This document shows positions 36,800 to 56,266 of a stretch of DNA of 64,000 nt, piece after piece. Numbering within the stretch: position 1 is the stretch's first letter; every line of letters begins with the position of its first letter. This stretch comes from a virus. Taxonomy: Duplodnaviria > Heunggongvirae > Uroviricota > Caudoviricetes. The stretch is from IMG/VR virus record IMGVR_UViG_3300012956_000001, positions 25,730 through 89,729 of that record. One strand, written 5' to 3'. The notes under the pieces were generated by a model. It ran no database searches. It was given only the letters and a program-made list of their open reading frames with translations, and was not told where the DNA came from. A program made the position numbers and the translations under genes.

Positions 36800-37168
36800 A
36801 TGGCAAGTAAAGAATGGATTGCAAAAAACAAAGATAAGATGAAAGAATATCGTCGTATGTGGTATCACAAAAACAAACAAGAAGAACAGAAAAAGGCCAG
36901 ACATCGACAAAAATCTAGACGTTCAAATATAAAAGAATGGTTAGATAATTATAAAGCAACATTGAAATGTGAACGATGTGGATTCTCACATCCAGCAGCA
37001 TTAGATTTTCATCATAGAGATTCTAGCACAAAAGAATTTACAATAGGATCTCGTAGAACTTTACCATCTAATACTAAAACACTAAAAGAAATTGAAAAAT
37101 GTGAAGTGTTGTGTTCTAATTGCCACAGAATACATCACTATGAAGAACGAAGGGTAGGATCTGTGTGA
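36800..37168 (+). CDS. HNH endonuclease
   Basis: CERCG...LDFHH...EIEKCEVLCSNCHRIHH. Confidence 0.85.
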   Translation: MASKEWIAKNKDKMKEYRRMWYHKNKQEEQKKARHRQKSRRSNIKEWLDNYKATLKCERCGFSHPAALDFHHRDSSTKEFTIGSRRTLPSNTKTLKEIEKCEVLCSNCHRIHHYEERRVGSV

Positions 37169-37219
37169 TCAGACCGAACTCCAAATCCGGTCAGCTCAGT
37201 TCGATTCTGAGCTACCCTG
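37151..37219 (+). tRNA. tRNA-Trp(CCA), degenerate D arm, overlaps HNH stop
   Basis: agggtag/ctaccct; loop ctccaaa; canonical T arm. Confidence 0.6.
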
Positions 37220-37226
37220 TATAATT

Positions 37227-37301: not shown

Positions 37302-37339
37302 CTTGACAAAATAGAAAATAGGGTATATATTGTAATCAT

Positions 37340-37826: not shown

Positions 37827-37905
37827 CTTGTAAAGCTCATTGATAATAGATGTATGGATGTTAGCGCCCGATCATTCCGAGGCGTGTATACAAATATCGG
37901 AATTT

Positions 37906-37977
37906 GCCTTGGTCGTTCAATGGATAGGACGATGGTCTACGAAACCATAAATGCAAGTTCGACTCTTGCCTAGGGCA
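37906..37977 (+). tRNA. tRNA-Arg(ACG)
   Basis: AC loop ctacgaa. Confidence 0.9.
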
Positions 37978-37981
37978 TATA

Positions 37982-38055
37982 GAGCAGCGACGTTGGTTCG
38001 AATCCAACCGCATGGCGTCCGCGCCGCGTGTAGCATAGTGGTTAGTGCACTGCTC
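37982..38055 (+). ncRNA. Circularly permuted tRNA-like RNA
   Basis: Order: gagcag, T arm, 3' acceptor strand, linker, 5' acceptor strand, D arm, ctgctc. Confidence 0.7.
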
Positions 38056-38065
38056 GTTGAGTCTC

Positions 38066-38138
38066 ACCCCTATGGGCGTAATTGGCAACGCTGCTGGCTT
38101 TTAACCAGCTGATCACAGTTCGAGTCTGTGTGGGGGTA
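38066..38138 (+). tRNA. tRNA-Lys(TTT)
   Basis: AC loop cttttaa. Confidence 0.85.
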
Positions 38139-38191: not shown

Positions 38192-38722
38192 ATGAACAGT
38201 AAAAGTAAGTTAGTGATGGAATCACAACGCAGAAAGAAACTCTTTGCAGTTGAACAATTTGGCGGAAAATGTCAAATATGTGGATATGATAAGTGTATTA
38301 ATGCACTATCATTTCATCACGTTGATCCATTGACAAAAAAAGAATCTCCATCTTATATTATAATGAGAAAAAGTTGGAAACTTGCATTTGAAGAACTGCA
38401 AAAATGTATATTGGTGTGTTCAAATTGTCATGCTGAAATACATTACATGAATGTAAACGTAGATTATTCTAAATATATTACTCCTACTGTGGAACTTATT
38501 TGTATAAAGTGTGACGAGAAATTTACAACTAAGGTAGCATCACAAAAATATTGTAGTAATAAGTGTAGAGCGGCAGCAAACTATAAAATTAAAAGAATTC
38601 CCACAAAAGAAGAACTATCACAAAAAATAAACAGTGGAATTTCTATATTGTCTATGGCAAAGGAATTTGGAATTTCTGACGTTGCTATGAAAAAATGGTT
38701 GGTTAAGTTTAATATAATATAA
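38192..38722 (+). CDS. HNH endonuclease with C-terminal Zn ribbon/HTH
   Basis: CQICG...LSFHH...KCILVCSNCHAEIH; C-terminal AKEFGISDVAMKKW. Confidence 0.85.
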   Translation: MNSKSKLVMESQRRKKLFAVEQFGGKCQICGYDKCINALSFHHVDPLTKKESPSYIIMRKSWKLAFEELQKCILVCSNCHAEIHYMNVNVDYSKYITPTVELICIKCDEKFTTKVASQKYCSNKCRAAANYKIKRIPTKEELSQKINSGISILSMAKEFGISDVAMKKWLVKFNII

Positions 38723-48524: not shown

Positions 48525-48786
48525 ATTGGAGAGTGAAGTGGTCGCGGCAATGTAAAAGTTGTCGAGGAGAACTTCCGGTCACCACAGAACAGCCTAGGGT
48601 GGAAGCTGCCCACGCCGTAAGGCGCTACACGGCAACAGAGACGAGCCGATTAAGTTCGGATGAAACGGGCGACAGGTTAGGCGGTGCAACCTCAAACAGT
48701 TAGGGCTCTGTTCGGGCAATGCTAACGGGTAGAGGGCTTAGACAGATGACCACTCTTGACAGAAACCGGGGTATTATCTCTCCAAT
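48525..48786 (+). ncRNA. rnpB: RNase P RNA (compact)
   Basis: P1 attggagag/ctctccaat; GAGGAGAACTTCCGG and ACAGAAACCGGGGTA (P4); GCAACAGAGAC; TGAAACGG. Confidence 0.85.
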
Positions 48787-48795
48787 GTTGTATGC

Positions 48796-55928: not shown

Positions 55929-56266
55929 GGGGCCGCTAGGCTTCGACGGAGGTTAGAACATTGAAAGAAGCGTGCCGAGACTGATTCGACTCGTTAAATG
56001 GAATCAAAATTCAAGTGCAGAATACGCACTCCCTCTAGCTGCCTAAGAGCGCTCGAGACTTTTATATTGAATCTGCGACAGTATAAAAGTTCGCTAGCAG
56101 ATAAATTCTCACCGACTCCGATACGATGAGATTTGACTTTCGGATAGACATAGTGTAGATTTGTTTATTGTGATACACTGTGTTAAAGTTTAGACAATAA
56201 ACTGCGCACGGAGAAGATTCAATAAGTACAATGCTTCGGACAGGGGTTCGAATCCCCTCGGCTCCA
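55929..56266 (+). ncRNA. ssrA: tmRNA; tag (A)AEYALPLAA*
   Basis: ggggccg/cggctcc-a with G3:U70, TTCGACGG, T arm; tag ORF 56017-56046. Confidence 0.95.

What the first reader, a model, noticed from the sequence alone, without database searches (positions are those of the whole stretch)
37982..38055. Circularly permuted tRNA-like gene inside the tRNA array
Seen: the 3' half comes first (gagcag-cgac-gttgg-TTCGAAT-ccaac-cgcatggc), then a short linker, then the 5' half (gccgcgtg-ta-gcat-agtggtt-agtgc-a-ctgctc). The acceptor is loop-closed and the ends lie at the anticodon. Known: this topology matches the tRNA-like domain of bacterial YrlA Y RNAs and permuted tRNAs of some algae and archaea. The long Ro-binding stem is absent and no Ro60 gene is in the window. 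Inference: a minimal tRNA-elbow mimic or a mimic of an anticodon-cleaved tRNA.
Basis: partly seen in the sequence, partly recalled or inferred. Interest (0 to 1): 0.8.

Follow-up and report, generated by a model that had tools for sequence, protein, structure and literature searches.

The report
Handle-less permuted tRNA mimic in phage
A 218-kb T4-like phage carries, wedged between two normal tRNA genes, a 74-base gene that folds like a tRNA with its back half first, its amino-acid end sealed and no anticodon loop, so it cannot decode. It is a stripped-down, so far unique relative of the tRNA-mimicking Y RNAs, and its function is unproven.

Summary
Window 37982-38055 (+) folds, alone and in its transcript context, into a circularly permuted cloverleaf. 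It has a 6-bp closing stem, a canonical T arm, a 9-bp loop-closed acceptor hairpin and a canonical D arm. All elbow and tertiary-contact bases are present, and there is no anticodon loop. It lies 4 nt after tRNA-Arg(ACG) and 10 nt before tRNA-Lys(UUU). None of 536 real tandem-tRNA junctions shows both cross-pairings, so it is not a chance junction.

It is not a decoding permuted tRNA. Joining its ends gives a 16-nt loop, and the complete phage genome matches no RtcB, Rnl1 or Rnl2 family. It is also not a Y RNA in the strict sense. YrlA scores 18 bits against a cut-off of 69, there is no long handle, and the genome has no Ro60 match.

A pattern survey found about 38 permuted tRNA-like modules in other phage contigs. 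All the others I folded or checked have long closing stems or handle motifs, and none is as tightly flanked by tRNAs.

Two distant syntenic relatives lack the element. The one close relative could not be fetched. Best reading (0.42): a minimal, Ro60-independent tRNA-body mimic released by tRNA processing. A decaying remnant remains a serious rival. This scan flagged related modules before on other DNA.

The parts
37303..37331 (+). sigma-70-like promoter (TTGACA-17-TATATT) heading the sub-operon Arg(TCG)-Ser-Ser-Tyr-Arg(ACG)-module-Lys(UUU)
   Evidence: 11 of 12 consensus matches. No plausible terminator on the + strand before 38138: the one consensus match, 38075-38092, is the D arm of tRNA-Lys. 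Inference only.
37905..37977 (+). tRNA-Arg(ACG), upstream neighbour. Its 3' maturation would set the 5' end of the module RNA.
   Evidence: 57.5 bits
37978..37981 (+). 4-nt 5' lead (UAUA)
   Evidence: unpaired
37982..37987 (+). closing stem, 5' strand GAGCAG (equivalent to anticodon-stem positions 38-43)
   Evidence: six Watson-Crick pairs with 38050-38055
37988..37991 (+). variable region CGAC (C48 available for the G15 Levitt pair)
37992..38008 (+). T arm GTTGG-TTCGAAT-CCAAC, canonical
38009..38030 (+). loop-closed acceptor hairpin. Strand 66-72 is CGCATGG, followed by C73 and G74. The loop is UCCG (38018-38021). Then come C-2, G-1 and strand 1-7, CCGCGTG. It contains G3.U70, C4.A69 and U6.G67.
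   Evidence: numbering by direct reading
38031..38032 (+). U8 A9 connector
38033..38048 (+). D arm GCAT-AGTGGTTA-GTGC (A14, G18G19, A21; T13.G22 wobble)
38049..38049 (+). A26 equivalent
38050..38055 (+). closing stem, 3' strand CTGCTC (equivalent to positions 27-32)
38056..38065 (+). 10-nt 3' tail GUUGAGUCUC, ending at the predicted RNase P site of tRNA-Lys
   Evidence: unpaired
38066..38138 (+). tRNA-Lys(UUU), downstream neighbour
   Evidence: 56.3 bits

Best explanation
The element is a stand-alone, handle-less tRNA-body mimic of the YrlA type. Inferred steps follow. It is transcribed with the neighbouring tRNAs. RNase P cutting at the 5' end of tRNA-Lys, together with 3' maturation of tRNA-Arg, releases an RNA of about 88 nt. 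That RNA folds into the tRNA L-shape with a normal D-loop/T-loop elbow, a sealed acceptor end and an open end where the anticodon loop would be. It cannot read a codon. It most likely acts by occupying a factor that recognises the tRNA body or elbow, either as a decoy for a host tRNA-targeting or tRNA-sensing protein or as the RNA partner of an unknown protein. It does this without Ro60. An optional extra step has a precedent in M. smegmatis YrlA: RNase P opens the 7-bp acceptor hairpin and the phage's own CCA-adding enzyme tails it, giving a two-piece RNA that looks like a tRNA cut at the anticodon. Shown here: the sequence, the fold, the tRNA signature bases, the genomic setting, and the absence of matches to Ro60 and to the RNA ligase families searched. 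Not shown: expression, processing, partner and biological effect.
For: The fold and tRNA signature bases are intact. Both cross-pairings are present, against 0 of 536 control junctions. The un-permuted body is called a tRNA. A covariance model built from nine other phage modules, without this one, ranks it top in the window at 48.8 bits with one non-standard pair. Those nine modules show strong compensatory change in the same four helices (96% paired, 14 pairs changed on both sides). The element lies on the same strand, 4 and 10 nt from flanking tRNAs, behind a promoter-like site and with no plausible terminator (the only + strand consensus match is the D arm of tRNA-Lys). The phage encodes an RNase P RNA-like gene and a CCA-adding enzyme. 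No close paralogue exists among the phage's 59 tRNAs, so it is not a fresh rearrangement. Making so compact a unit needs at least two precise deletions that spare the core, which argues weakly for retention by selection (inference). Published precedent: YrlA folds as a tRNA, is modified by TruB and DusA, and the 7-bp-stem form is cut by RNase P and CCA-tailed (PMC4201824; 10.1101/312249).
Against: There is no evidence of conservation. Two syntenic but distant relatives have other sequence between tRNA-Arg(ACG) and tRNA-Lys(UUU), or lack the pair altogether. No orthologue turned up in IMG/VR, JGI metagenomes or GTDB genomes with the patterns used. The acceptor stem has two G.U pairs plus an A.C mismatch. 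That is worse than any of the 38 phage tRNAs whose stems could be read in register, and all of these departures are single transitions, as expected from drift. The D stem differs from the GCUC/GAGC that is invariant in the nine aligned phage modules, shared by most other modules in the survey, and matched by the YrlA consensus. The covariance score does not discriminate: an ordinary Asp-Arg junction reached 47.5 bits. No partner protein was identified.
Confidence: 0.42

Rival explanations
1. Neutral or decaying remnant. It is either the core left over from a Y-RNA-like gene after the lineage lost Ro60 and the handle, or a by-product of rearrangement in an array full of HNH homing endonucleases. 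It is transcribed passively and does nothing.
For: It is absent from both reachable syntenic relatives. There are three transition-type defects in the acceptor stem and one in the D stem, worse than the phage's real tRNAs. It has no handle, and the genome matches no Ro60, RtcB, Rnl1 or Rnl2 family. Three HNH genes lie in the array, two within 1.2 kb. Other orphan tRNA pieces exist in the window.
Against: All four helices and every tertiary-contact base are still intact. The closing stem is six perfect Watson-Crick pairs, against 4 of 536 junctions with 5/5. No trace of handle sequence remains, and the unit is trimmed to within 4 and 10 nt of its neighbours, which random decay would not be expected to achieve while sparing the core (inference). 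No recent parent tRNA exists in the genome.
Confidence: 0.3
2. Two-piece, CCA-ended tRNA-half mimic. RNase P cuts the acceptor loop, the 3' trailer is trimmed and CCA is added. The two halves stay paired and present a free acceptor end. That end might be charged through anticodon-independent identity marks (G-1:C73 as in tRNA-His, G3.U70 as in tRNA-Ala), or sensed or repaired as if it were a cleaved tRNA.
For: The acceptor has the 7-bp length that made M. smegmatis YrlA an RNase P substrate with CCA addition in vivo (PMC4201824). The phage has its own RNase P RNA-like gene and CCA-adding enzyme. G-1:C73 and G3.U70 are present by direct reading, and the phage's own tRNA-His also encodes G-1:C73. 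Several modules in other phages encode N73-CCA inside the acceptor 'loop', as if built for this cut.
Against: Here the helix runs two pairs past position 1 and is capped by a 4-nt loop, a poor context for RNase P (inference). No CCA is encoded. C1:G72, C2:G71 and C73 are not alanine-like, and G.U pairs are frequent enough in this stem for G3.U70 to be chance. Other modules show no consistent G3.U70.
Confidence: 0.13
3. Bona fide Y RNA that borrows the host's Ro60 (Rsr).
For: The tRNA-like module has the YrlA topology. In the survey, 4 of 8 complete phage records with modules also lack TROVE.
Against: It has no long closing helix and neither recurrent handle motif (TACAGCAA/TTACATCGCA or GGTTACTTC) seen upstream of other modules. 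YrlA scores 18.1 bits against a cut-off of 69, and the flanks it tries to pair belong to the neighbouring tRNAs.
Confidence: 0.07
4. True circularly permuted tRNA gene. The ends are joined and the acceptor loop removed to yield a decoding tRNA, as in Cyanidioschyzon merolae.
For: The gene order is 3' half, short intervening sequence, 5' half. The body is tRNA-grade. Flanking tRNA processing would define both ends.
Against: Joining the processed ends gives a 16-nt loop without a U33-anticodon-R37 layout. Only arbitrary trimming yields a 7-nt loop, and the best such loop has G33. The complete genome matches no RtcB, Rnl1 or Rnl2 family. Bacteria and their phages are not known to have a BHB splicing endonuclease (own knowledge; PMC3978253 describes the pathway only in algae and archaea).
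Confidence: 0.03

Closest known systems
YrlA (Y RNA-like A; Rfam RF02553; Chen et al. 2014, PMC4201824; crystal structure in 10.1101/312249)
   Same: It has the same circular permutation: anticodon-like closing stem, variable bases, T arm, loop-closed acceptor, U8-N9, D arm. It has the same elbow-forming bases and lacks an anticodon loop and a free CCA end. Some YrlA genes lie next to tRNA genes and in phages.
   Different: It has no Ro60-binding helix or handle, and the genome has no Ro60 match. It scores 18.1 bits against the 69-bit cut-off. The D stem is GCAU/GUGC rather than the conserved GCUC/GAGC. The core is 74 nt against about 110-150 nt, and it is embedded directly in a tRNA operon.
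Mycobacterium smegmatis YrlA (processed form; PMC4201824)
   Same: It has a seven-base-pair acceptor hairpin next to a canonical T arm, the feature that allowed RNase P cleavage and CCA completion.
   Different: That RNA is bound by Rsr and carries the Y RNA stem. In the phage element the hairpin is extended by two pairs and capped by a tetraloop. Processing has not been tested.
Handle-bearing permuted tRNA-like modules of other phages (this survey: e.g. L281, L286/L288, L192, L206, L287, L219, L289)
   Same: They share the module order. Several have the identical T arm GTTGGTTCGAATCCAAC and D loop AGTGGTTA. They also lie in or beside phage tRNA arrays.
   Different: Those I folded sit on long closing helices. 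About half of the surveyed modules carry a TACAGCAA-type or GGTTACTTC-type upstream motif, and 10 of 28 records encode a TROVE protein. The window's element has none of these and is the only one of 38 with tRNAs within 14 nt on both sides.
Circularly permuted tRNA genes of Cyanidioschyzon merolae, green algae and Thermofilum pendens (PMC3978253)
   Same: The 3' half precedes the 5' half and a short intervening sequence closes the acceptor stem.
   Different: Those genes encode complete tRNAs whose termini form a BHB motif. They are spliced into a circle and yield decoding tRNAs. Here the anticodon loop is missing and no splicing or ligation machinery was found.

Membership tests
YrlA / bacterial Y RNA (RF02553) | tRNA-like domain in permuted order (T arm, closed acceptor, D arm) closed by an anticodon-like stem | tested here: met
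   MFE fold; the YrlA model aligns the three arms in register
YrlA / bacterial Y RNA (RF02553) | Score at or above Rfam's gathering threshold | tested here: not met
   18.1 bits against 69; no match at gathering level
YrlA / bacterial Y RNA (RF02553) | Long basal helix or handle that binds Ro60 | tested here: not met
   Only a 6-bp stem; flanks are unpaired; neither handle motif of the other phage modules is present
YrlA / bacterial Y RNA (RF02553) | Ro60/Rsr (TROVE) gene nearby or in the genome | tested here: not met
   PF05731 search of the complete 217,729-bp genome found 0 candidates, while the controls rang
YrlA / bacterial Y RNA (RF02553) | Binding to Ro60, and modification by TruB and DusA | not testable with these tools
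   Needs RNA immunoprecipitation and modification mapping
Circularly permuted tRNA genes (algae, Thermofilum) | 3' half upstream of 5' half, joined through an acceptor-loop intervening sequence | tested here: met
Circularly permuted tRNA genes (algae, Thermofilum) | Joined termini restore a complete tRNA with a 7-nt anticodon loop | tested here: not met
   The processed ends give a 16-nt loop and no U33-anticodon layout (and direct reading)
Circularly permuted tRNA genes (algae, Thermofilum) | End-joining machinery (BHB endonuclease and RNA ligase) | tested here: not met
   The genome has no RtcB or Rnl2 match; the Rnl1 family search rang nowhere, controls included, so it is uninformative. A host ligase cannot be excluded.
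Canonical tRNA (RF00005) | Contiguous cloverleaf with an anticodon arm, found by tRNA finders | tested here: not met
   Not called by ARAGORN or Rfam in native order; called only after in-silico un-permuting
Two-piece (permuted) tmRNA | Permuted tRNA-like domain joined to a tag reading frame and pseudoknots; D-loop analogue without a stem | tested here: not met
   ARAGORN calls no permuted tmRNA here. The unit is 74 nt with a full D arm and no room for a tag. The phage has a standard tmRNA at 55929-56269.

The most novel reading that the evidence does not exclude
Phages make Ro60-independent 'bare' tRNA bodies from their tRNA operons. This 74-nt module, freed by ordinary tRNA processing (and possibly opened and CCA-tailed by the phage's own RNase P RNA and CCA-adding enzyme), would act as an uncleavable decoy or false 'cleaved-tRNA' signal. 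It would blunt host tRNA-targeting defences or tRNA-damage sensing. That would be a new class of RNA-based counter-defence.
Probability: 0.15. Interest if true: 0.75.

Novelty: new variant of a known kind. Interest (0 to 1): 0.45.

Why it matters
YrlA-type tRNA mimics are known as Ro60 partners, and their effector is still unidentified. A version reduced to the tRNA body alone, in a complete phage genome with no Ro60 match, would show that the tRNA-like module can work by itself. It would also give a minimal bait for finding the protein that reads this module. The survey adds that permuted tRNA-like modules are common in phage tRNA arrays and are missed by tRNA finders. They are also hard to separate from tandem tRNA junctions by covariance score alone, which matters for annotating phage tRNA arrays. 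If the element is only a remnant, it still records how such modules are gained and lost in arrays rich in homing endonucleases.

Tried and rejected
- **Exact and degenerate DNA patterns for orthologues.** I searched IMG/VR, JGI metagenomes and GTDB genomes. No orthologue was found. The single metagenome hit was an ordinary Ile-Met tandem.
- **Neighbouring ORFs as synteny anchors.** The 36800 ORF is a mobile HNH gene and gave 80 unrelated loci. Single-protein scans with the 35969 and 39537 ORFs found nothing in IMG/VR. An alignment-based scan found two distant relatives, L301 and L302.
- **Relatives by gp23.** The closest (67-78% identity) lie on short contigs without the array. Large contigs at about 57% identity contain only tandem-junction look-alikes.
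- **GenBank phages.** There was no similarity beyond single tRNAs.
- **Covariance score as a membership test.** Rejected, because a normal Asp-Arg junction scores 47.5 bits against 48.8 for the element.
- **T arm GTTGG...CCAAC as a module signature.** Rejected, because it also occurs in 32 ordinary tRNAs, mostly Ser(GCU).
- **Parent tRNA.** No convincing match was found among 59 own tRNAs or 1257 tRNAs in phage loci. The resemblance of the 5' half to the phage's tRNA-His D arm is weak.
- **Pairing between the 3' end of tRNA-Arg and the 5' end of tRNA-Lys proposed by the YrlA alignment.** It is only 5 bp and competes with both tRNAs' own acceptor stems.
- **The 704-aa VWA protein as a hidden Ro60.** It pairs with a CbbQ/NorQ-type MoxR ATPase and has no TROVE signal.

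Full report
**What is there.**
The window belongs to a complete IMG/VR virus record of 217,729 bp with direct terminal repeats. It is T4-like by its gp23 capsid gene and has 44% G+C. It carries 59 tRNA genes, a tmRNA, a GOLLD RNA and an RNase P RNA-like gene, all on the + strand.

The reported element lies at 37982-38055. It starts 4 nt after the discriminator of tRNA-Arg(ACG) and ends 10 nt before tRNA-Lys(UUU). In order, it reads:
- GAGCAG, one strand of the closing stem
- CGAC, the variable region
- GTTGG-TTCGAAT-CCAAC, the T arm
- CGCATGG-C-G / UCCG / C-G-CCGCGTG, the acceptor hairpin
- TA, the U8-A9 connector
- GCAT-AGTGGTTA-GTGC, the D arm
- A, the position-26 equivalent
- CTGCTC, the other strand of the closing stem

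This permuted cloverleaf is the minimum-free-energy fold of the 74 nt (47% of the ensemble). It is also the fold with the flanks added and in the 234-nt Arg-module-Lys stretch, which folds as three consecutive cloverleaves. Every base used for tRNA tertiary structure is in place: U8, A14, G15/C48, G18G19, A21, G53, T54-A58 and C61. The acceptor hairpin is 9 bp with a UCCG loop, not 8 bp with a 6-nt linker. It contains G3.U70, C4.A69 and U6.G67.

**More than chance.**
Folding energy alone is unremarkable (z = -0.97). The right control is real tandem tRNA junctions, because any T arm followed by the next tRNA's D arm imitates the order. I examined 536 such junctions (spacer 12 nt or less) from 2.6 Mb of phage loci.
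- The upstream 3' acceptor strand pairs with the downstream 5' strand at 6/7 or better in 19 junctions.
- The two anticodon-stem strands pair 5/5 in 4 junctions.
- Both conditions hold in none.

The element has both, and the closing stem has a sixth pair. Neither half is part of a complete tRNA. When the halves are swapped back in a script, ARAGORN calls a tRNA with almost any filler loop.

**What it is not.**
It is not a decoding permuted tRNA. After processing of its neighbours, the ends would be UAUA- at the 5' side and -GUUGAGUCUC at the 3' side. Joining them gives a 16-nt loop with no U33-anticodon layout, and the only 7-nt loop obtainable by trimming has G33. The complete genome gives no match to RtcB or Rnl2, and the Rnl1 family search rang nowhere, its controls included, so it is uninformative. 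The algal and archaeal pathway depends on a BHB motif and a splicing endonuclease (PMC3978253).

It is also not a Y RNA in the strict sense. Rfam's YrlA model aligns the three arms but scores 18.1 bits against a cut-off of 69, and it pairs flanks that belong to the neighbouring tRNAs. There is no long basal helix, and TROVE/Ro60 is absent from the whole genome. The 704-aa VWA protein early in the window is the partner of a CbbQ/NorQ-type MoxR ATPase, not a Ro60.

**The wider class.**
Two pattern scans of IMG/VR retrieved many loci with a T arm followed by a D arm with loop AGTGGTTA.
- In the first scan, 81 matches were ordinary tandem tRNAs.
- In 22 matches neither arm lay in a called tRNA, and 19 of those had acceptor cross-pairing of 6/7 or better.
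- All 11 matches of the narrower pattern were such modules.
- A generic scan of all loci in hand gave about 38 distinct modules.

The same narrow pattern hit only one contig in 596 Gb of prokaryotic genomes and one ordinary tandem in JGI metagenomes. This sequence flavour therefore appears to be mainly a phage one.

The modules fall into three topologies:
- the break lies at the anticodon loop, as here and in YrlA;
- the break lies at position 26, with an anticodon arm kept upstream;
- the break lies in the variable region, with the anticodon arm kept downstream.

Nine modules of the first type show 96% pairing and compensatory changes in 14 of 21 pairs. That set was chosen for acceptor pairing, so the junction control is the fairer test. 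Only one of the loci tested reaches YrlA's gathering score. TROVE genes occur in 10 of 28 records with modules, and in 4 of 8 records that are at least 90% complete. Ro60-less phages with such modules are therefore not rare.

The other modules I folded sit on long closing helices. About half of the surveyed modules carry one of two recurrent upstream motifs, TACAGCAA/TTACATCGCA or GGTTACTTC. The window's element has neither. It is the only one of 38 with tRNAs within 14 nt on both sides.

**Conservation.**
This is the weak point. The ORF 1.5 kb downstream (39537-40217) has a 91%-identical homologue on a 197-kb JGI contig.

Two distant relatives were reached (34-39% identity for that ORF).
- L302 keeps the gene order Arg(TCG)-Ser-Ser-Arg(ACG)-Lys(UUU)-Lys(CUU)-His.
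- In L302 the Arg(ACG)-Lys(UUU) gap is 282 nt. It holds unrelated sequence plus a non-canonical tRNA-Lys-like gene, and no module.
- L301 has no module in that region (the stretch around its tRNA-Arg(ACG) was read) and no tRNA-Lys.
- Neither record has a module elsewhere.

Large T4-like contigs at about 57% capsid identity have only junction look-alikes. So the element is lineage-specific at best.

**Function or remnant.**
Arguments for function:
- All helices and tertiary bases are intact.
- The 6-bp closing stem is perfect.
- No recent parent tRNA exists in the genome.
- The unit is trimmed to the core, which needs at least two precise deletions that spare it (inference).

Arguments against function:
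- No conserved orthologue is known.
- The acceptor stem (two G.U pairs and one A.C mismatch, all single transitions) is poorer than any of the 38 phage tRNAs readable in register.
- The D stem departs from the GCUC/GAGC that is invariant in the nine aligned phage modules, shared by most other modules in the survey, and matched by the YrlA consensus.
- Three HNH homing endonuclease genes lie in the array, and other orphan tRNA pieces are present.

**Most likely mechanism (confidence 0.42).**
The module is co-transcribed from the promoter-like site at 37303-37331. RNase P cutting at tRNA-Lys and 3' maturation of tRNA-Arg would free it. It would then fold as an L-shaped tRNA body with a normal elbow, a sealed acceptor and no anticodon loop. 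In that form it could bind a factor that reads the tRNA body, either as a decoy or as a cofactor, independently of Ro60.

There is a sub-variant (0.13). M. smegmatis YrlA, which has a 7-bp acceptor, is cut by RNase P and CCA-tailed in vivo (PMC4201824), and this phage encodes both an RNase P RNA-like gene and a CCA-adding enzyme. The hairpin might therefore be opened to give a two-piece RNA that resembles an anticodon-cleaved tRNA. G-1:C73 and G3.U70 are present, but they may be chance. All of these steps are inferred.

**Novelty.**
YrlA RNAs are already described as circularly permuted tRNAs with closed acceptor stems, including in phages beside Ro60 (PMC4201824; 10.1101/312249; PMC7824862). 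The new feature here is the minimal, handle-less, Ro60-less form set directly inside a tRNA operon. I rate it a new variant of a known kind. Earlier notes of this scan had flagged related permuted modules on other DNA. My survey agrees with them and adds the contrast between handle-bearing and handle-less forms.

Noticed in passing
window 48526-48789: Phage-encoded RNase P RNA-like gene: bacterial class A model matched end to end at 100.1 bits, just over the 100-bit cut-off, but only 264 nt long, so it looks strongly reduced.
   Followed up: no
G000:C1:105741-107321 (outside the window; locus L307:1402-2982): 526-aa class-II CCA-adding enzyme (PolyA_pol head, RNA-binding, HD and tRNA_NucTran2_2 domains). 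This fits tRNA genes that lack an encoded CCA.
   Followed up: partly
window 37150-37226: Orphan canonical T arm (CTCAG-TTCGATT-CTGAG at 37195) preceded by a CUCCAAA anticodon-like loop. It is probably a non-canonical tRNA-Trp that ARAGORN misses; no other tRNA-Trp is called in the genome.
   Followed up: no
window 17093 and 18799: Two more canonical T arms (TGGGG-TTCGACT-CCCCA and GTGGG-TTCGAAT-CCCAC) lie outside any called tRNA.
   Followed up: no
L268:5183-5383: tRNA-in-tRNA: a permuted module with a GAAA-capped acceptor sits where the anticodon loop of an outer tRNA-like gene should be, giving a two-elbow RNA.
   Followed up: no
L286:7902, L282:10546, L259:1438, L260, L277:491, L263 (module acceptor loops): In a subset of phage modules the acceptor 'loop' begins with N73-CCA (ACCAT, ACCAA, GCCAATT, GCCAAAAT, GCCATGTTTT). 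This suggests these modules are made to be cut by RNase P and to expose a ready CCA end.
   Followed up: partly
upstream of about 20 modules in loci L164-L290: Two recurrent motifs lie 10-45 nt upstream of the T arm: TACAGCAA/TTACATCGCA, and GGTTACTTC. The second goes with modules that keep an anticodon arm, mostly in TROVE-positive records.
   Followed up: partly
L302:6046-6117: Non-canonical tRNA-Lys(UUU)-like gene (Rfam 43.4 bits, missed by ARAGORN) lies directly before the canonical tRNA-Lys(UUU) in a distant relative. The 200 nt before it fold more stably than shuffles (z = -2.5).
   Followed up: no
window 36800-37168, 38192-38722, 41268-41867: Three HNH homing-endonuclease ORFs are interspersed in the tRNA array. 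The first has 277 relatives in IMG/VR.
   Followed up: partly
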